Shown here: positions 53,148-60,254 of the stretch, in pieces
Numbering within the stretch: position 1 is the first letter of the stretch
How the letters are laid out: every line of letters begins with the position of its first letter
Origin: Acidimicrobiia bacterium
Lineage (GTDB): Bacteria > Actinomycetota > Acidimicrobiia > Spongiisociales > ZC4RG35
Direction: 5' to 3'
NCBI GenBank assembly: GCA_035513335.1
Contig: DATKCE010000031.1
Coordinates: 20,971-84,970, forward strand
DNA: 64,000 nt
The notes under the pieces: model-generated
What the model saw: the letters and a program-made list of their open reading frames with translations, nothing else
Told to the model about the DNA's origin: nothing
Database searches by the model: none
Position numbers and translations under genes: made by a program

Positions 53148-53255
53148 CACCTCACCGCATACTCAGGGCGCCAGACTTCGCCGAGCGGGGCCTGAAACCC
53201 TGGGTTCGCTCAATTCACGGCAATTGGCGATTAGGTGGGTATTGTTTTCTGTCAC

Positions 53256-55550
53256 ATGCCAACCCGGACATCCACCCGCAAGGGCTCCGGGCGGAGACGG
53301 GTGTCCTCGAAGAAGAACAAGAAGCCTCAGACGAAGTCCCTCTCGCAGACGCTGGCTGCGGTGCGCGACTCGGTCAGGAACACACTCGGTCGTCAGACCG
53401 ACGACGTCTGGGGTCTCTTACTACTAGTCCTCGCCATCCTGGTGACCCTGGCCTTCTTTGGTCTCGCAGGGCCGGTCGGGGAGGGATTCGAGCGAGGGTC
53501 CCGCTTCCTCTTCGGGGTATGGCGCTACGCCCTCCCGGTCGCGCTGGCAGGGGTCGGCATCGCTTTGATCGTCGGCAAACCGCGGGACGGAGCGCGCAAG
53601 CTGGTCTTCGGTGGCATCACCACGTTCATAGGCACCCTCGCCCTCTTCCACCTCCTCACCGGAGCCGTGGCCTTCCGCTCCTCCCTGGAGCTGGTCCAGG
53701 AGCGTGGAGGGGCCGTCGGCTCTCTGATCGCCTTCCCGATGCGAAGGGTCCTGGGCCACTGGGGTGCCTTCGTGGTGCTCGCCTCCTCGATCGGCATGGG
53801 GGTGCTGATCATGACCCAGACTTCGGTGAGGGAGCTGGCCAACGGCATCGCCGACCTGTGGAGGAACCTGCGCCAGCTCGCCCGTGAGGTCATCGCCGGC
53901 GAGCAGGACGAGCGCGGAGCCCACCTCGCCCGTCCGGTCCAGATCGTCGAGCCGGTCCCGCGGGGGAAGCACCAGCGGCCCGTCGACCAGAGGCCACCCA
54001 AGAAGGAGAGGGGCGAGGCGGAGCCGGTGGCGCCGATCGAGAAGGCCCCCGAGCCCGAGCCGGTGCCGGTGACGCTGGATCTGACCAAGAGCGACTACGA
54101 GCTGCCACCACTGTCGCTCCTCGACGGAGGCACCGGCGGAGAGGTGAACAAGCGGTCCCTGGAGGAGACGGCCCGCCAGCTCGAAGACACCCTGCTCCAA
54201 CACGGTGTCGACGCCCAGCTCACCAAGATCGTGCCCGGCCCCACCGTGACCCGCTACGAGATCGAGCTCGCTCCGGGAGTGAAGGTCAATCGGGTATCCA
54301 ACCTCTCCCACGACATCGCCTACGCGCTGGCCACCCCCGATGTGAGGCTCCTGGTCCCCATCCCCGGCAAGTCGGCCATCGGGGTCGAAGTGCCCAACGT
54401 GAAACGACGCCTGGTCGCCCTCGGCGACATCCTCTCCGCCCCGGAGGCGGCCAAGCCCGCCCATCCCCTCACTGTGGGTCTGGGGATGGACATCTCGGGC
54501 CAACCCAGGCTGCTCAACCTCTCCGAGCTGCCCCACCTCCTCATCGCCGGCGCCACCGGCGCCGGGAAGTCGTCCTGTATCAACTCGATCGTGACCTCAC
54601 TGCTGATGCGGACCCACCCCGACGATGTCAGGGTGATCATGGTCGACCCCAAGCGAGTCGAACTCGGCCAGTACAACGGTGTCCCTCACCTACTCACCCG
54701 GGTCATCACCAACCCCAAGAAGGCCAACGAGGCGCTGAAGTGGGCGGTGGCCGAGATGGACCGCCGCTACGACCTGCTCGCCGACGGAGGGGTGCGGGAC
54801 ATCGAGGGCTACCGGGAGAAGCTAGACGTCGGTGGCCTCGATCCTGAGGGCTTCGACCGCTTCCCCTACGTCGTGGTGATCATCGACGAGCTCAACGATT
54901 TGATGATGGTGGCCGGGCGCGAGGTGGAGGAGTCGATCGTCCGCATCGCCCAGATGGCACGCGCCGTGGGCATTCATCTCGTCATCGCCACCCAGCGTCC
55001 TTCGGTTGATGTCATCACCGGCGTCATCAAGGCCAACGTCCCCAGCCGCCTGGCCTTCAGCGTCGCCTCTCAGACCGACAGTCGTGTCATCATCGACGGG
55101 GCCGGCGCCGAGAAGCTGGTGGGCATGGGCGACATGTTGGTGGTCACAGCCAAGGAGCCGAGACCGCAGCGCATCCAGGGCGCCTGGGTCCGCGAGACCG
55201 AGGTGCACGCCGTGGTCGACTGGGTGAAGAAACAGCGTGAGGCTCGATATCAGGACCAGCAGGTGCTCGAGGCCGCGGCGGCCGCGGCCGCCTCCAGGGC
55301 CGAGGAGGAGGACGACGAAGACGCCGACCTGATCCGACAGGCGATGGAGCTGGTGGTGCGGTCTGAGCTCGGCTCGACCTCCATGCTGCAGCGCAAGCTG
55401 AGGATCGGGTTCGCCCGAGCCGGCAGGGTGATGGACTCCCTGGAGCGGATGGGTGTCGTCGGACCGTCGGTGGGGAGCAAGGCGCGTGACGTCCTGATGA
55501 CGGTCGAGGAGCTCGAAGGGGTGCTCGAGGCCGAATCGGCCGGTGTGTGA
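53256..55550 (+). CDS. ftsK: DNA translocase FtsK
   Basis: N-terminal TM helices, Pro/Glu-rich linker, motor domain with Walker A GATGAGKS, and a C-terminal gamma winged helix. Confidence 0.9.
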   Translation: MPTRTSTRKGSGRRRVSSKKNKKPQTKSLSQTLAAVRDSVRNTLGRQTDDVWGLLLLVLAILVTLAFFGLAGPVGEGFERGSRFLFGVWRYALPVALAGVGIALIVGKPRDGARKLVFGGITTFIGTLALFHLLTGAVAFRSSLELVQERGGAVGSLIAFPMRRVLGHWGAFVVLASSIGMGVLIMTQTSVRELANGIADLWRNLRQLAREVIAGEQDERGAHLARPVQIVEPVPRGKHQRPVDQRPPKKERGEAEPVAPIEKAPEPEPVPVTLDLTKSDYELPPLSLLDGGTGGEVNKRSLEETARQLEDTLLQHGVDAQLTKIVPGPTVTRYEIELAPGVKVNRVSNLSHDIAYALATPDVRLLVPIPGKSAIGVEVPNVKRRLVALGDILSAPEAAKPAHPLTVGLGMDISGQPRLLNLSELPHLLIAGATGAGKSSCINSIVTSLLMRTHPDDVRVIMVDPKRVELGQYNGVPHLLTRVITNPKKANEALKWAVAEMDRRYDLLADGGVRDIEGYREKLDVGGLDPEGFDRFPYVVVIIDELNDLMMVAGREVEESIVRIAQMARAVGIHLVIATQRPSVDVITGVIKANVPSRLAFSVASQTDSRVIIDGAGAEKLVGMGDMLVVTAKEPRPQRIQGAWVRETEVHAVVDWVKKQREARYQDQQVLEAAAAAAASRAEEEDDEDADLIRQAMELVVRSELGSTSMLQRKLRIGFARAGRVMDSLERMGVVGPSVGSKARDVLMTVEELEGVLEAESAGV

Positions 55551-55621
55551 GGGCGTATCGGTGAGCCCGTGACGCGTTTAAGCTCGCGTCCTCAGGGGCT
55601 GATCACCACAAGGAGAGAAGC

Positions 55622-56788
55622 GTGAGCTCACGCAAGTCGGGGCTTGGTCGCGGGCTGGACGCTCTGATTCCGACCGCCGGGCCGACATCGGGCGCCGTGA
55701 CACGGCAGACTCGAGAGAATGACAGGCCAGCGATGTTCGGTCTGATCAATCCCGACGGGTCGGTTCGGGACCGGCTTCCGATAACCGTCGACGAGATGAA
55801 AGCGCTCTACGCCGACATGGTCGAGGCGCGCACCTTCGACTCCAAGTCGATGGCGATGCAACGCCAGGGCCGTCTCGCCACCTATGCCCCGTTCCGGGGC
55901 CAGGAAGCAGCCCAGGTGGGTGCCGCGGCGGCGCTAGGCGACGGCGATTGGGTCGCCGCCACCTATCGGGACGCCGCCCTCAACTGGCGGGCCGGTTATC
56001 CGTGGGAGTTGCTGATCCTCGGTCGCACCGGAGACGAACGTGGGGGAGAGCTCCCCGATGGCGTCAACGTCCTTCCCCCTTCGATAACTGTCGGGGGCCA
56101 CATGATCCACGCCGTGGGGCTGGCATGGGCGGAGAAACTGTCCAACGGCGACCGCATCGCTCTCACCTCCTTCGGGGACGGGGCCACGTCGGAAGGCGAC
56201 TTCCACGAGGCGATGAACTTCGCCGCCGTCTACCAGACCCCGACCGTTTTCTTCTGTCAGAACAATGGGTACGCCATCTCGTACCCAATCTCGGAACAGA
56301 CCCGGTCCGAGTCGATCGCGATCAAGGCCGAGGCATACGGCATGCCCGGGATCCGAGTGGATGGCAACGACGTGATCGCGGTTCTCGTCGCGGTCCGTGA
56401 GGCGGCGGCTCTTGCCCGCTCCGGGGAGGGGCCGAGTCTCATCGAGGCGGTCACCTATCGGCTGGGCCCACATACGACCGCGGACGACCCCACCCGCTAC
56501 CGCGACCAGGAGGAGACGGACGCGTGGGAAGAGAGAGACCCGCTGGTCAGGGTGAGGAGACTGTTGGAGCAGCAGGGGGCGTGGTCGGAAGAGTGGCAGG
56601 CCCAACTGGAGCAACAGGCGTCGCAGCGGATCGAGAGTGCGGTCGAGTGGGCGGAGTCGGTCCCGCCTCCCACGTTCGAAGAGATGCTGAGCCGTGTGTT
56701 CGCCGAGCCGACCCAGCCTCTACGACAACAGCTCCGTGAGGGTGGCGACGGAGGGGGCAGCGGAGGGGGCGAGGTGTCGCGTGCCTGA
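55622..56788 (+). CDS. pdhA: 2-oxoacid dehydrogenase E1 component alpha subunit (TPP-dependent; PdhA/BkdA type)
   Basis: TPP motif GDGATSEGDFHEAMNFAAV ... FFCQNNGYAIS; RBS AGGAGAG upstream. Confidence 0.85.
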   Translation: MSSRKSGLGRGLDALIPTAGPTSGAVTRQTRENDRPAMFGLINPDGSVRDRLPITVDEMKALYADMVEARTFDSKSMAMQRQGRLATYAPFRGQEAAQVGAAAALGDGDWVAATYRDAALNWRAGYPWELLILGRTGDERGGELPDGVNVLPPSITVGGHMIHAVGLAWAEKLSNGDRIALTSFGDGATSEGDFHEAMNFAAVYQTPTVFFCQNNGYAISYPISEQTRSESIAIKAEAYGMPGIRVDGNDVIAVLVAVREAAALARSGEGPSLIEAVTYRLGPHTTADDPTRYRDQEETDAWEERDPLVRVRRLLEQQGAWSEEWQAQLEQQASQRIESAVEWAESVPPPTFEEMLSRVFAEPTQPLRQQLREGGDGGGSGGGEVSRA

Positions 56789-56806
56789 GGTCAACCTCGC
56801 CCAGGC
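56768..56806. repeat. 39-bp exact direct repeat, copy 1 (spans the pdhA stop codon)
   Basis: GGCGAGGTGTCGCGTGCCTGAGGTCAACCTCGCCCAGGC, identical to 56871..56909. Confidence 0.8.
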
Positions 56807-56870
56807 TGTGAGAATTGAGGGGGGGCGACCCCCCTCGGCCCCCCCGCTCGCGATGGCCGCTCGAGTCGCT

Positions 56871-56909
56871 GGCGAGGTGTCGCGTGCCTGAGGTCAACCT
56901 CGCCCAGGC
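56871..56909. repeat. 39-bp exact direct repeat, copy 2 (contains the pdhB GTG start)
   Basis: identical to 56768..56806; period 103 bp. Intervening 64 bp contain G7 (56819..56825) / C6 / C7 forming a G:C hairpin. Confidence 0.8.
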
Positions 56910-57861
56910 GTTGAACGGGGCGCTGGCCAGCGCACTGGAGACCGATGACCGGGTGGTCCTCCTCGGCGAGGACATCGGGCGCACCGGCGGGGTGTTCCGG
57001 ATCACCGACGGGTTACGCGATCGTTTCGGGGAGAACCGGGTGTTCGACACACCAGTGGCCGAGTCGGGGATCGTCGGTTCGGCGTTCGGCATGGCCATCG
57101 CCGGGATGAGGCCCGTGGCCGAGATCCAGTTCATGGGCTTCTCATATCCGGCCTACGACCAGATCATCAACCACGTCGCCCGGATCCGGAACCGCACCAA
57201 CCACCGTTTCACTGCACCGATGGTGATCCGCATGCCATATGGCGGGGGAATCGGCGCCGCTGAGCACCACTCGGAGTCGACGGAGGCGATCTACGCCCAC
57301 ATCCCGGGAATCAAGGTGGTGGTGCCCTCCACGCCATACGACGCCCGCGGTCTACTGTTGGCGGCGATCGAGGATCCCGACCCTGTTGTCTTCCTGGAAC
57401 CGATCCGGCTCTACCGGGCGGTGAAAGAGGACGTCCCCGACATTCACTTCTCGGTGGAGATCGGACCGGTGCGCGTCGAGCGGACCGGCGACGAGATCAC
57501 TTTGATCAGCTGGGGGGCGATGATGAAGGAGACCCGTGCCGCCGCCTCCCGACTCGAGGAGGACGGAGTCTCCGTGGAGGTCATCGAAGTGCACACTCTG
57601 TCCCCTCTCGACCGTGACGGCATTGTCGCCTCCGTGGACAAGACCGGCCGCGCCGTGGTGATCCATGAGGCCGCACTGACCGGAGGCTTCGGCGGCGAGA
57701 TCGCCGCCACCATTCAGGAGCGAGCGCTCTATTCACTCCATGCGCCGGTGCGGCGCGTCACCGGATGGGACACTGTCTTCCCGCTGAAGCGGTCGGAAGG
57801 TCACTACCTTCCCGACGTGGAGCGGATCGTGAACGCCGCCTACGAGACACTGGAGGTTTGA
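56884..57861 (+). CDS. pdhB: 2-oxoacid dehydrogenase E1 component beta subunit
   Basis: transketolase-like fold (VNLAQALNGALASALETDDRVVLLGEDIG). GTG start lies inside repeat copy 2. Confidence 0.85.
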   Translation: MPEVNLAQALNGALASALETDDRVVLLGEDIGRTGGVFRITDGLRDRFGENRVFDTPVAESGIVGSAFGMAIAGMRPVAEIQFMGFSYPAYDQIINHVARIRNRTNHRFTAPMVIRMPYGGGIGAAEHHSESTEAIYAHIPGIKVVVPSTPYDARGLLLAAIEDPDPVVFLEPIRLYRAVKEDVPDIHFSVEIGPVRVERTGDEITLISWGAMMKETRAAASRLEEDGVSVEVIEVHTLSPLDRDGIVASVDKTGRAVVIHEAALTGGFGGEIAATIQERALYSLHAPVRRVTGWDTVFPLKRSEGHYLPDVERIVNAAYETLEV

Positions 57862-59246
57862 TGGCCCGCGAGTTCAGGCTCCCCGACATCGGAGAGGGCC
57901 TCACCGAAGCCGAGATCGTGCGCTGGCTGGTCCAGGTGGGCGAGGAAGTCCAGGCCGATCAGCCGATCGTCGAGGTGGAGACCGACAAGGCCGTGGTCGA
58001 GATTCCCTCACCGTATGGCGGAGTGATCATTTCTCATGGTGGAGCCGAAGGCGACGTCATCGAGGTCGGCGCAGTCCTGGTCACCATCGGCGAGCCGGGG
58101 GAAGCGACGCCGGAGGCGTCTGAGGGGGGAGATGGGGAGGTGGCGCCGGAGGGTGCGGATGCGGACGTAGTCGGGGCCGACTCGGAACCGGAACCGATCG
58201 TCGGCACACTGCGTGGCGACGTCGAGACGCTGACCCCGTCCCGGTCCCAACCTTCGGTGGCGCCCGCGGTGAAGGCACTGCCCGTGGTGCGCAAGCTGGC
58301 CCGCGACAACGACATCGCTCTCGAGTCCATCCAGGGGTCGGGCCCGGGTGGTCGGATCCTGCGTGAGGACGTGGAGGCCGTCATCGTCGCCCGATCCGAG
58401 ACAGTGCCGTCCGGGGGGCATCATGCCGTCGACTACGAGCCGGTGGGGGCGGGGCATGGGGTCTCCGACTTCGATGAAGAGGCTCGTGCCGAGGTGGAGT
58501 CCCAGCCCCCGGAGGAGCCGGAGTCCGCACCAGGGCCGGAGTCTGCGCCAGTCGAGACGAAGGTGGAGGACGGGCGCCGACCCATGTCCCGGACCCGTCG
58601 CACCATTGCCGCTCACATGGCGAAGAGCTGGTCGGAGATCCCCCACGTGACCACCTTCGACGATGTCGACGCCACCCGTCTCCTCGAGGTGCGCCGGGCG
58701 CTCGGTGACCGCCATGGGATGAAGATCCCGATGGAGGCGCTGGTGGTCAAGGCGGTCCTGCCCGCCTTGGAAGAGTTCCCCGAGTTCAACTCGAGCATCG
58801 ACGGGGACGATCTCGTGTTCCACGCCTCGAGAGACATCGGCATCGCTGTCGACACCCCCGACGGCCTCATGGTGGCGGTGATCCGCGACGCCGGGGAGAA
58901 GAGCGTGATGGAGTTGGCGGCAGAGGTGCGCAGATTGGGCGAGGGTGCCCGCGAGCGCACGCTCACCCCCGACCTGTTGAGTGGTCAGACTTTCACCGTC
59001 TCCAACATCGGCGCCGTGGGTGGTGGTCACGGCACGCCGATCGTGCCTCACGGGACCGTCGCCATCCTCTCGGTTGGCTCCGCACGGCTCCGCCCCGTCG
59101 TCTACGACGAGGACCTCGGAGTGGCGCCGGTGATGCCGCTCTCATTGTCCTACGACCACCGGGTGATCGACGGTGCCGTGGGTCGCCACTTCATGTCCCT
59201 CGTGCTCGAGAACCTCGAGGAACCGGCACTCTTTCTCGCGGGCTGA
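57861..59246 (+). CDS. dihydrolipoamide acyltransferase E2 component
   Basis: lipoyl domain (ETDKAVVEIPSP), Ala/Pro/Glu linker, catalytic domain with DHRVIDG. ATG overlaps the pdhB stop (TGATG); RBS GGAGG. Confidence 0.85.
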   Translation: MAREFRLPDIGEGLTEAEIVRWLVQVGEEVQADQPIVEVETDKAVVEIPSPYGGVIISHGGAEGDVIEVGAVLVTIGEPGEATPEASEGGDGEVAPEGADADVVGADSEPEPIVGTLRGDVETLTPSRSQPSVAPAVKALPVVRKLARDNDIALESIQGSGPGGRILREDVEAVIVARSETVPSGGHHAVDYEPVGAGHGVSDFDEEARAEVESQPPEEPESAPGPESAPVETKVEDGRRPMSRTRRTIAAHMAKSWSEIPHVTTFDDVDATRLLEVRRALGDRHGMKIPMEALVVKAVLPALEEFPEFNSSIDGDDLVFHASRDIGIAVDTPDGLMVAVIRDAGEKSVMELAAEVRRLGEGARERTLTPDLLSGQTFTVSNIGAVGGGHGTPIVPHGTVAILSVGSARLRPVVYDEDLGVAPVMPLSLSYDHRVIDGAVGRHFMSLVLENLEEPALFLAG

Positions 59247-59249
59247 GCA

Positions 59250-60200
59250 GTGACCAACGACGACGAGATCCTCTTGTTCGCGGGTAACGGAAGCAAGATT
59301 TTGGGTCAGCGGATCGCTGACGAGCTGAGAATCGATGTCAGCCAGGGGGATACCAGCGTGTTCCCCGACGGGAACCTGTTCGTCAAAGTGGGGGCGAACG
59401 TGCGGGGGCGACACGTGTACCTGGTGCAGTCGACGGTGTTTCCGAGCAACGACAACTTCATGGAGCTGTTGTTCTGGATCGACGCCTTCAAACGGGCGAG
59501 CGCCGAGTCGGTGACCGTTGTCATACCGTATTTCAGCTATGCCAAAGGGGACAAGAAAGACGAGCCGAGGGTCTCGATTCGGGCACGTGTCTGTGCCGAC
59601 GCGATCGAGTCGGCCGGCGCGGATCGGGTGGTGGCGATGGATCTGCATGCTCCTCAGATCCAGGGCTTCTTCCGCATCCCGGTCGACAACCTCTACGGGA
59701 TGCCGGTGCTCTGCGATCAGATCGAAGAACTCGATCTCGAGAATCTCGTCGTGGTCTCACCAGACGCCGGGTTCGCCAGGCAGGCCAGGAGGTTTGGCGC
59801 GACCCTGAGCGCATCGGTGGCCATCGCCGACAAGGAGCGCCGGGGTCACGATCAGCATCCCGAGGTGTTACGGATCATGGGCGAAGTGGAGGCCAAGACA
59901 GCCTTGATCGTCGATGATTTCACCCTCTCGACCGGCACGCTCGTGTCCGCAGCAGAGGAGCTGATGAGGCGTGGCGCCGCCACGGTGTACGCTCTGGTGA
60001 CCCACGGTGTCTTTGCGGAGGGCTCGATGGAGCGACTCGATGACAGCCCTATCGTGAAGTTGTTCGTCACTGACACCGTCGAGAACCAGCCGGTTACATT
60101 CTCCGAGAAGGTCGACGTCGTTTCGGTGGCTCCGCTGTTCGCCGAGGCCATCACCCGCATCCATCACCGGGCGAGCATCAGCGAGCTCTTTCCGGGCTGA
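59250..60200 (+). CDS. prs: ribose-phosphate pyrophosphokinase
   Basis: VIPYFSYAKGDKKD and DLHAPQIQGFF motifs; PRPP-binding loop. Confidence 0.9.
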   Translation: MTNDDEILLFAGNGSKILGQRIADELRIDVSQGDTSVFPDGNLFVKVGANVRGRHVYLVQSTVFPSNDNFMELLFWIDAFKRASAESVTVVIPYFSYAKGDKKDEPRVSIRARVCADAIESAGADRVVAMDLHAPQIQGFFRIPVDNLYGMPVLCDQIEELDLENLVVVSPDAGFARQARRFGATLSASVAIADKERRGHDQHPEVLRIMGEVEAKTALIVDDFTLSTGTLVSAAEELMRRGAATVYALVTHGVFAEGSMERLDDSPIVKLFVTDTVENQPVTFSEKVDVVSVAPLFAEAITRIHHRASISELFPG

Positions 60201-60254
60201 GCCGGCATGCCTAGCCTCGCGGTGACCGGCCCCAGACAGATCTACCGAGGCTGA

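What the first reader, a model, noticed from the sequence alone, without database searches (positions are those of the whole stretch)
56768..56909. Exact 39-bp direct repeat duplicating the pdhA-stop/pdhB-start junction around a 64-bp G7/C7 hairpin insert
The 39-mer GGCGAGGTGTCGCGTGCCTGAGGTCAACCTCGCCCAGGC occurs twice, 103 bp apart. Copy 1 holds the pdhA stop codon (TGA 56786..56788, preceded by GEVSRA). Copy 2 holds the pdhB GTG start (56884). In each copy GTGCCTGA is the sequence where an E1-alpha stop overlapping an E1-beta start would lie; copy 1 carries the real pdhA stop and copy 2 the real pdhB start. Between the copies lie 64 bp containing G7-CGA-C6-TCGG-C7, a strong hairpin. The arrangement creates a 36-codon chimeric ORF (GTG 56781 to TGA 56891) starting like PdhB and ending like PdhA. 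This looks like a duplication-plus-insertion, possibly a small hairpin element with a long target duplication, that uncouples the two E1 subunits. An assembly artefact is also possible.
Basis: seen in the sequence. Interest (0 to 1): 0.65.

Follow-up and report, generated by a model that had tools for sequence, protein, structure and literature searches.

The report
Junction-duplicating minisatellite between pdhA and pdhB
The exact 39-bp repeat is real, and it is one allele of a strain-variable tandem repeat between the two E1 genes of pyruvate dehydrogenase in a group of uncultured Acidimicrobiia; each unit re-creates the overlapping stop/start signal, so it resembles the MIRU minisatellites of mycobacteria and shows no sign of being a transposon insertion or an assembly error.

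Summary
An exact 39-mer lies at 56768-56806 and 56871-56909, with 64 bp between the copies that carry a G7/C6 hairpin and a 36-codon ORF (56781-56891).

It is not an artefact. An independent MAG (L001, 96-97% aa identity) and a metagenome contig (L166, 90%) carry the same 103-nt unit without indels, and L083 carries 2.3 copies of a 97-nt version.

About 70 other relatives have the normal 1-, 4- or 8-nt stop/start overlap. In the window's small clade the junction is a hypervariable composite minisatellite with two unit types: S1 hairpin units, and units made of a duplicated beta start plus a G/C module. Contigs whose E1-beta genes are at least 99.4% identical carry spacers of 47, 99, 107 or 150 nt.

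Every G/C unit with a duplicated start is 1 mod 3 in length, so its ORF begins on the upstream stop and ends on the next start. The peptide itself is not conserved, but the 30-nt hairpin module is.

No other copy of either unit type was found in 1.78 Mb, so a mobile element is unsupported. The closest analogue is MIRU-VNTR. Relay translation and the hairpin's role are inferred, not shown. Interest is moderate.

The parts
55733..56788 (+). E1-alpha (pdhA). The probable start is ATG 55733, and the longest ORF starts at GTG 55622. The stop is TGA 56786-56788. The C-terminal tail ...QLREGGDGGGSGGGEVSRA is about 10 residues longer than in relatives.
   Evidence: ORF list. TIGR03181 gives 436 bits against a cut-off of 411. 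Tail comparison with relatives.
56738..56769 (+). A 12-nt micro-repeat (2.5 copies) that encodes the Gly-rich end of the alpha tail, in the segment that cannot be aligned with L001.
   Evidence: TRF. The window/L001 alignment breaks at 56722-56780.
56768..56806 (+). Repeat copy 1. It holds an SD-like GAGG (56771-56774), the relay start GTG 56781 overlapping the alpha stop TGA 56786-56788 (GTGCCTGA), and a copy of the first 8-9 codons of beta.
56781..56891 (+). Relay ORF of 36 codons, MPEVNLAQAVRIEGGRPPSAPPLAMAARVAGEVSRA. It starts on the alpha stop and stops on the beta start. The 103-nt repeat unit is 56781-56883.
   Evidence: Homologous ORFs occur in L001, L166 and L083 (two copies). The peptide is not conserved: 4 synonymous to 11 non-synonymous codon differences, against 100 to 31 in beta.
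56807..56870 (+). The 64 bp between the two copies, which is the interior of the repeat unit.
   Evidence: Unique in the window. It aligns colinearly with L001 and L166.
56817..56846 (+). Conserved G/C module GAGGGGGGGCGACCCCCCTCGGCCCCCCCG. The hairpin stem pairs 56817-56824 with 56829-56836, with loop 56825-56828, and is followed by a second C7 run.
   Evidence: nhmmer finds it only at this junction, in the window, L001, L083 (two copies), L086, L166 and L024 (inverted). It is 80-93% identical where third codon positions are 54-66% identical. The hairpin is predicted in all copies, with no covariation.
56847..56883 (+). Unit tail, which ends in the SD-like GAGG (56874-56877) 6 nt before the beta start. 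It is positionally homologous to the 3' half of the S1-type spacer units of relatives.
   Evidence: The L166 tail matches the L165 S1b unit at 26 of 31 positions, and the window tail is colinear with the L166 tail. It drifts at the neutral rate, 23 of 37 positions.
56871..56909 (+). Repeat copy 2. It holds the SD, the true beta start GTG 56884, the relay stop TGA 56889-56891, and beta codons 1-9.
56884..57861 (+). E1-beta (pdhB), 325 aa. Its stop overlaps the E2 start by 1 nt.
   Evidence: Relatives' gene calls show the same 1-nt beta/E2 overlap.

Best explanation
The feature is one allele (1.38 copies of a 103-nt unit) of a locus-specific, strain-variable minisatellite that has grown at the translationally coupled pdhA/pdhB junction in one clade of Acidimicrobiia. 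Shown: the ancestral and still most common junction is a 1-, 4- or 8-nt stop/start overlap. In this clade the junction holds tandem units of two kinds. One kind is the S1 hairpin unit of 45-60 nt. The other is a G/C unit of 97-103 nt, made of a copy of the beta start, a conserved 30-nt G/C hairpin module, and an SD-bearing tail. Unit number and type differ between near-identical strains. Inferred: units are gained and lost by slipped-strand mispairing or unequal recombination between the direct repeats, probably helped by the hairpins. The window's allele can collapse in one step to a normal 8-nt overlap, as seen in L161. Inferred: because each G/C unit is 1 mod 3 in length and carries SD + GTG + TGA, ribosomes that terminate alpha at 56786-56788 can reinitiate at GTG 56781 and translate a throw-away 36-codon ORF. 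They then terminate at 56889-56891 on top of the real beta start. Coupling is thus relayed across the 95-nt gap, which is the same logic as described for MIRUs. The hairpin module is under sequence constraint. Its role, most plausibly an intercistronic mRNA hairpin that tunes the alpha:beta ratio, is not established.
For: Exact repeat and ORF geometry. The homologous 103-nt unit is in L001 (94 of 103 positions) and L166 (78 of 103), both without indels, and a 97-nt unit is present at 2.3 copies in L083. S1 units are present at 1.9 copies in L081 and L082, and they are homologous across L001, L084, L081, L082, L164 and L171. About 70 relatives have -1, -4 or -8 spacing, and long spacers are confined to the window's clade. 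Strain-level polymorphism: L164, L165, L166, L168 and L169 differ by 1-6 nt in 978 nt of beta but have spacers of 47, 99, 150, 47 and 107 nt. All five G/C units with a duplicated start are 1 mod 3 in length (103, 103, 103, 97, 97), although L083 u1 and u2 differ by two compensating 1-nt indels. The relay peptide is not under purifying selection (p = 0.0002 against beta), while the module is conserved relative to the rest of the unit (p = 0.0097). Identical SD-like GAGG motifs lie 6 nt before both starts. No promoter or terminator is flagged in the spacer. -8 NTGNNTGA is a recognised coupling motif, and coupling falls with distance (PMC12548453). MIRUs are intergenic units in operons whose ORF ends overlap the flanking genes (PMC3184786).
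Against: No expression data exist, so relay translation is inferred from geometry only. Sister lineages manage with 44-158-nt spacers that have no relay ORF (L084, L081, L082, L002, L164), so coupling is evidently dispensable in this clade, and the frame-keeping could be chance (1/3 per independent unit type). Only two or three of the units are independent. Whole-unit RNA folds are not more stable than shuffles (z = -0.5 to -1.0), and the hairpin shows no covariation. The origin of the G/C module is unknown. Similarity between the window's alpha tail and the insert is not significant (488 of 2000 shuffles), so an origin by simple tandem duplication of the alpha tail plus the junction is not shown. 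Whole genomes could not be scanned, so low-copy dispersal cannot be excluded.
Confidence: 0.7

Rival explanations
1. A small non-autonomous hairpin element (MITE- or REP-like) inserted into the overlap, and a long target-site duplication of 26-39 bp regenerated both gene ends.
For: The core module is highly conserved (80-93%) while its immediate flanks are not alignable between distant lineages. It is inverted in L024 and sits inside the alpha tail in L086. The allele pair L164 (empty) and L166 (filled) differs by exactly R + 77 nt.
Against: The module occurs only at this one junction in 1.78 Mb from more than 170 loci, including about 120 kb from module-bearing genomes, and not in viral contigs. 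No terminal inverted repeats were found. The duplication is far longer than transposase TSDs. In L166 the two copies are not identical and are of two different allele types, and the tail of the insert is homologous to the resident S1 spacer. Tandem multiplication in L083 fits a minisatellite better.
Confidence: 0.1
2. This is an assembly artefact: a mis-joined or duplicated junction in a metagenome-assembled contig.
For: The source is a MAG, and repeats can be mis-assembled.
Against: A 142-bp structure is spanned by single reads. The same architecture, with 9 and 25 substitutions and no indels, is present in independent assemblies from other samples (L001, L166), and a related 2.3-copy array is in L083.
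Confidence: 0.02
3. This is a neutral slippage scar with no function. The duplication is real and variable, but beta is simply translated from its own SD. The relay ORF and its frame are by-products of duplicating a GTGNCTGA overlap, and the module is conserved only through mutational or gene-conversion bias.
For: Sister alleles have long spacers without any relay ORF. The relay peptide evolves neutrally. An SD-like GAGG precedes the beta start. Fold z-scores are not significant. There is no covariation.
Against: All five units keep a length of 1 mod 3 despite indels. The module is significantly more conserved than the neighbouring unit sequence, which drifts at the third-codon-position rate. 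R1 stays near-identical to R2 in three lineages (26/26, 25/26 and 24/26).
Confidence: 0.3
4. This is a REP-like intercistronic mRNA hairpin. The conserved G/C stem-loop acts on the transcript as a 3'-5' exonuclease barrier or a ribosome pause, and sets different levels of the alpha and beta segments. The duplication is secondary.
For: The stable hairpin (-13 to -20 kcal/mol) is kept in all seven copies, including the inverted one, which fits an orientation-tolerant structural role. It always lies at or just after the alpha 3' end. REP sequences in intercistronic regions have such roles (cited in PMC3184786).
Against: There is no covariation, no Rfam family and no experimental data. L001's copy has a mismatch and a wobble. 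Many strains lack the hairpin altogether.
Confidence: 0.25

Closest known systems
MIRU-VNTR minisatellites of Mycobacterium (Supply et al. 1997, as summarised in PMC3184786)
   Same: Both have units of about 40-100 bp in tandem within intergenic regions of operons, oriented with the operon. Copy number varies between strains. The units contain G-C-rich internal inverted repeats and carry ORFs whose ends overlap the stop and start of the flanking genes. Both hosts belong to the same phylum, Actinomycetota.
   Different: MIRUs are dispersed at about 40-50 loci per genome, whereas these units were found at one locus only. These units are built from the downstream gene's own start region and local spacer. 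There are two unrelated unit types in one array. Sequence relatedness to MIRUs was not tested.
REP/BIME extragenic palindromes in intercistronic regions (for example the hisJ-hisQ and malE-malF operons)
   Same: Both are short G-C-rich stem-loops between cistrons of an operon and are orientation-tolerant. An effect on differential mRNA stability is plausible here.
   Different: REPs are present in hundreds of copies and are mobilised by RAYT transposases. No dispersal or transposase link was seen here, and REPs do not duplicate the start/stop junction.
Rickettsia palindromic elements (RPE) inserted in-frame in ORFs (from my own knowledge, not checked here)
   Same: In L086, and probably L161, the hairpin module is read as part of the E1-alpha C-terminal tail. 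A palindromic element is therefore tolerated inside coding sequence.
   Different: RPEs are dispersed multi-copy elements. Here a single locus is involved, and the coding capture looks like a by-product of repeat contraction.
Homopolymer contingency loci (phase variation by slipped-strand mispairing; from my own knowledge)
   Same: G7, C6 and C7 runs lie inside a short ORF whose frame decides where ribosomes terminate relative to the next start. Run lengths differ between copies (G5, G6, G7).
   Different: No evidence of on/off switching was found. The organisms are environmental Acidimicrobiia, and the gene is central metabolism rather than a surface antigen.

Membership tests
MIRU-like intercistronic minisatellite | Tandem units of roughly 40-100 bp located between co-oriented genes of an operon | tested here: met
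   Units of 103 nt (window, L001, L166), 97 nt (L083, 2.3 copies) and 60 nt (L081 and L082, 1.9 copies) lie between pdhA and pdhB.
MIRU-like intercistronic minisatellite | Copy number varies between closely related strains | tested here: met
   Contigs with beta genes at least 99.4% identical carry spacers of 47, 99, 107 and 150 nt. The 93% relative has none.
MIRU-like intercistronic minisatellite | Unit ORFs whose ends overlap the stop of the upstream gene and the start of the downstream gene | tested here: met
   This holds for the G/C units. The window ORF 56781-56891 overlaps the alpha TGA and the beta GTG, and the same is true in L083. In L001 and L166 the relay ORF overlaps only the beta start, because an S1 spacer separates it from the alpha stop. 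It does not hold for S1 units.
MIRU-like intercistronic minisatellite | Dispersed at tens of loci per genome | tested here: not met
   nhmmer with the module and S1 profiles finds copies only at this junction in 1.78 Mb. Whole genomes could not be scanned.
MIRU-like intercistronic minisatellite | Sequence homology to mycobacterial MIRU consensus | not tested
MITE / transposon insertion with target-site duplication | Terminal inverted repeats and a short identical TSD flanking a discrete element | tested here: not met
   No TIRs were found at the ends of the 64-bp interior. The duplication is 26-48 nt, and in L166 it is not identical and is of two allele types.
MITE / transposon insertion with target-site duplication | Multiple copies at unrelated sites | tested here: not met
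REP / BIME | Hundreds of dispersed copies and association with a RAYT transposase | tested here: not met
   There are no further copies in 64 kb of window or 1.7 Mb of loci. RAYT was not searched for.
Known structured RNA (Rfam 15) | Match to a covariance model | tested here: not met
   There were 0 matches at E <= 1 over 55400-58000.
Intrinsic terminator between alpha and beta | G-C-rich hairpin followed by a T run | tested here: not met
   The hairpin is followed by TCGGCCCCCCC, and the scan found no terminator on the + strand.
Translationally coupled gene pair (-8 NTGNNTGA motif) | Start of the downstream ORF overlaps the stop of the upstream ORF by 8 nt | tested here: met
   GTGCCTGA is present at both 56781-56788 and 56884-56891. 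The motif is described in PMC12548453. Actual coupling is not testable with these tools.

The most novel reading that the evidence does not exclude
The array is a tunable, reversible translational-coupling device. Unit copy number, and 1-nt slippage in the G7, C6 or C7 runs of the relay ORF, would switch E1-beta between three states. The first is relayed termination-reinitiation. The second is an in-frame N-terminally extended beta: G7 to G6 gives a 359-aa fusion starting on the alpha stop. The third is uncoupled translation: G7 to G8 gives a 44-codon ORF ending 27 nt inside beta. The conserved hairpin would be the selected slippage and pausing element. This would be a contingency-type switch acting on subunit stoichiometry of a core metabolic enzyme.
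Probability: 0.1. Interest if true: 0.65.

Novelty: new variant of a known kind. Interest (0 to 1): 0.4.

Why it matters
The case shows in natural populations how a tightly overlapped, translationally coupled junction between two subunits of an essential enzyme can tolerate repeated local duplication. Each tolerated unit re-creates the SD, start and stop cassette. It extends the MIRU idea of repeat units that preserve stop/start overlaps in operons to another class of Actinomycetota, in a single-locus, locally derived form. The natural allelic series has 0, 1 and 2 units, with or without the hairpin, with alpha reading through the module, and possibly an alpha-beta fusion. That series is a ready-made experiment for testing termination-reinitiation against RNA-unfolding models of coupling. 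For annotation pipelines, such loci produce spurious small ORFs, and in related contigs they produce N-terminally extended pdhB gene calls.

Tried and rejected
1. Exact-protein look-ups of the window's alpha and beta, and of P0001, found nothing. The source record is therefore known only through the P0001 description.
2. Other copies of the 64-bp interior or the hairpin in the window: none beyond chance.
3. Viral contigs scan for the module: 0 hits.
4. Rfam: no match.
5. Tandem duplication of the alpha tail as the origin of the insert. Local alignments of the alpha tail against the unit interior were not significant in the window (488/2000), L001 (1688/2000) or L083 (2180/3000). The idea now rests only on L086 and L161, where the module is read in the same frame as alpha's tail. 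I do not claim it.
6. Homology of unit interiors outside the module between the window, L083 and L086: not significant.
7. Global RNA structure of the unit: z-scores were not significant. Only the larger 156-nt context (z = -2.66) and the S1 hairpin (z = -3.0) stand out.
8. Covariation in the hairpin: essentially none.
9. Occlusion of the beta SD by structure: the minimum-free-energy folds differ between lineages, so no claim is made.
10. L024's relay frame was not used, because that long-read MAG shows an apparent frameshift in beta, which makes its homopolymer lengths unreliable.
11. The NJ tree has no support values and omits L161-L170. It is used only to show that odd junctions cluster.
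Full report
OBSERVATION. The 39-mer GGCGAGGTGTCGCGTGCCTGAGGTCAACCTCGCCCAGGC occurs exactly twice, at 56768-56806 and 56871-56909, with none expected by chance. The similarity runs on to 44 nt at 95%. It is the only local direct repeat of this size in the 64-kb window. The 64 bp between the copies is unique in the window. It contains G7-CGA-C6-TCGG-C7, whose first hairpin folds at about -20 kcal/mol. The ORF list places FtsK at 53235-55550 and E1-alpha ending at TGA 56786-56788. E1-beta runs from GTG 56884 to 57861, E2 to 59246, and a prs gene follows. Alpha passes the NCBIfam PDH-E1-alpha equivalog cut-off, and beta and E2 match PDH-type families. The beta protein is 100% identical to an NCBI-annotated 325-aa protein of an Acidimicrobiia MAG with a 111.7-kb contig, so the GTG 56884 start is also NCBI's call. 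The 36-codon ORF from GTG 56781 to TGA 56891 is real. All factual parts of the finding are confirmed.

WHAT RELATIVES SHOW. I fetched 80 loci from GTDB species representatives and 80 from metagenomes with the beta protein, and 19 more through exact-protein look-ups. In about 70 relatives the alpha stop and beta start overlap by 1, 4 or 8 nt. These are the three spacing motifs known to be enriched in translationally coupled pairs (PMC12548453). Long spacers are confined to the window's own small clade.

Within that clade the junction is extraordinarily variable:
- L001 (96-97% aa identity; an independent MAG from another study) has the same 103-nt unit, with 94 of 103 positions identical and no indels. 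Its beta-start duplicate is 25/26 identical over the 26 nt from the start codon. In L001, however, alpha stops earlier and a 50-nt S1 spacer precedes copy 1.
- L083 (87%) has 2.3 tandem copies of a homologous 97-nt unit.
- L081 and L082 (88% and 87%) have 1.9 copies of 60-nt S1-type units.
- L084 and the nine P0021 contigs have a single S1 unit.
- L024 (86%; a long-read MAG) has alpha's stop overlapping a decayed pseudo-start, then a spacer that holds the same G/C module in inverted orientation, then the true start.
- In L086 (84%) the module is read as part of alpha's C-terminal tail (...HEGGRPPSDPP...). The frame is the same as in the window's small ORF (...IEGGRPPSAPP...), and alpha ends in a normal 8-nt overlap.
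- L161-L163 (93%), L167 and L170 (89%) have plain 8-nt overlaps.

POPULATION-LEVEL VARIATION. Five contigs from four related JGI samples encode beta genes that differ by only 1-6 nt in 978. Their alpha-beta spacers are 47 nt (L164 and L168, one S1 unit), 99 nt (L165, two S1 units), 107 nt (L169, two S1 units including a copy of alpha's last codons) and 150 nt (L166). L166 has S1, then a duplicated beta start, then the G/C module, then a tail, which is the L001 architecture. The L166 unit is again exactly 103 nt and aligns to the window's unit without indels. Its first repeat copy is of the L164 allele type. Its second copy and its tail are of the L165 type, and the tail matches the L165 second S1 unit at 26 of 31 positions. 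The array therefore behaves like a minisatellite with variant repeats that are shuffled by unequal exchange. It does not behave like a fresh insertion with an identical target duplication. This also disposes of the assembly-artefact reading.

WHAT IS AND IS NOT CONSERVED. I compared the window with L166, where beta is 85% identical at the nucleotide level and 66% at third codon positions:
- The duplicated start region is 24/26 identical.
- The 30-nt module is 26/30 identical.
- The remaining unit interior is 28/47 identical, which is the neutral rate. The module is significantly more conserved than that interior (Fisher p = 0.0097).

Across all lineages the module is 80-93% identical where third positions are 54-60% identical. 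The hairpin is predicted in all seven copies at -13 to -20 kcal/mol, but there is essentially no covariation. There is no Rfam match. The small ORF's peptide is not under purifying selection: 4 synonymous to 11 non-synonymous codon differences, against 100 to 31 in beta (p = 0.0002). Yet all five G/C units that carry a duplicated start have a length of 1 mod 3 (103, 103, 103, 97, 97). That is the condition for the ORF starting at one GTGNCTGA to stop on the TGA of the next. The two L083 units differ by two compensating 1-nt indels that change the peptide but keep the stop in place. Only frame 0 is open across each unit.

MOBILE ELEMENT? Profiles of the module and of the S1 unit find copies only at this junction in 1.78 Mb of window plus loci. 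That total includes about 120 kb from module-bearing genomes. A scan of viral contigs found nothing. No terminal inverted repeats are present. The high conservation of the core, its inversion in L024 and its different contexts keep this idea alive at low probability.

MOST LIKELY MECHANISM. Shown: this is a strain-variable tandem array at a junction that is normally a stop/start overlap, and the window carries 1.38 copies of the 103-nt unit. Each copy of the 39-mer contains an SD-like GAGG 6 nt before a GTG that overlaps a TGA. Inferred: units arise and are lost by slipped-strand mispairing or unequal recombination between the direct repeats, and the strong hairpins in both unit types probably promote this. 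One recombination between the window's two 39-mers would restore a canonical 8-nt overlap, with alpha ending ...EVSRA*, the state seen in L161. Inferred: a ribosome terminating alpha at 56786-56788 can reinitiate at GTG 56781, translate the 36-codon ORF, which would also melt the hairpin, and terminate at 56889-56891 on the true beta start. Coupling is thus relayed across 95 nt, a distance over which direct coupling would otherwise weaken. No promoter or terminator is flagged in the spacer. Against a required relay, sister alleles have spacers of 44-158 nt and no relay ORF, so beta can evidently be expressed from its own SD. I therefore give the structural interpretation high confidence, and the relay and hairpin functions only moderate to low confidence.

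WINDOW-SPECIFIC DETAILS. Compared with L001 (96% nt identity on both sides), the window differs sharply only in 56722-56780. Alpha's early stop and the S1 spacer are replaced by a Gly-rich read-through tail that contains a 12-nt micro-repeat. The repeat also extends 13 nt further left (GGCGAGGTGTCGC). L001's alpha end (...SNVQ* followed by S1) is shared with L081, L082, L084 and L164. The window's arrangement is therefore the derived one. It probably arose by a deletion or conversion that fused alpha in frame to the end of an upstream unit. That step is inference.

COMPARISON WITH KNOWN SYSTEMS. The closest described kind is the mycobacterial MIRU-VNTR. MIRUs are 40-100-bp units in intergenic regions of operons, with G-C-rich internal inverted repeats, ORFs whose ends overlap the flanking genes, and strain-variable copy number (PMC3184786; PMC3635867). 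Four of those features are met here. The dispersed multi-locus distribution was tested on the available sequence and not met, and sequence homology was not tested. I therefore say that it works like a MIRU and do not file it as one. REP/BIME intercistronic hairpins share the possible mRNA role but not the copy number or the mobility. Rickettsia palindromic elements resemble the L086 state, where the palindrome is read inside an ORF (from my own knowledge). Homopolymer contingency loci are the model for the most novel reading. In the window, G7 to G6 would fuse the relay ORF in frame to beta (359 aa), and G7 to G8 would give a 44-codon ORF ending inside beta. This reading is untested.

VERDICT. 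The feature is real and not an artefact. It is a new, single-locus variant of a known kind of element, the intercistronic minisatellite that preserves stop/start overlaps. It contains an unexplained conserved G/C hairpin module. It would be moderately interesting to specialists in translational coupling or bacterial repeats, and it is not a categorically new system.

Noticed in passing
window 59247-60248: The prs (ribose-phosphate pyrophosphokinase) ORF at 59250-60200 has lower GC (about 0.59 against 0.65-0.70 around it). It has no counterpart in L001, where the E2 stop joins directly to the sequence matching window 60249. Other relatives have a small CMD-domain gene right after E2 instead. 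This is a roughly 1-kb indel.
   Followed up: partly
window 55622-55732: The longest E1-alpha ORF (GTG 55622) begins MSSRKSGLGRGLDALIP..., which looks like a ParB-type N-terminal motif. It lies in frame upstream of the probable true start at ATG 55733. It could be a relic or a chance match.
   Followed up: no
L087 3840-3960: In this 85% relative the alpha frame runs without a stop into the beta frame (...GDNGLRAEVNLAQ...). This is an apparent in-frame alpha-beta fusion, an internal TTG start, or a sequencing error.
   Followed up: no
L002 9917-9994: This 87% relative has a different 78-nt spacer with an inverted repeat, TTCTGTGAA...TTCACAGAA. It is unrelated to the S1 and G/C units and may be an operator-like palindrome.
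   Followed up: no
L024 10001-10200: The beta ORF of this long-read MAG goes out of frame after about 45 codons. This is probably a homopolymer error, so G/C run lengths in L024 are not reliable.
   Followed up: no
L171 1562-2980: On one of nine contigs encoding P0021, the E1-alpha gene call is 472 aa with N-terminal FHA/Yop-YscD domains, and an FHA-trypsin gene replaces FtsK upstream. This is either a different upstream context or a fusion.
   Followed up: no
L164 9940-10000 and the S1 units of L081, L082, L001: S1 spacer units form a significant long hairpin (UCGAGUGUGCA...UGCACGCUCGA, z = -3.0). Each begins with a GTGCAG(T)GA motif that resembles the beta start GTGCCTGA, so S1 units may be older, decayed junction copies.
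   Followed up: partly
window 56746-56761: GGCGACGGAGGGGGC in the alpha tail resembles the alpha-end/beta-start junction of the 89% relatives (GGCGATGGCTGAGGTC in L170). It may be a third, decayed junction copy that alpha now reads through. This is at noise level.
   Followed up: no
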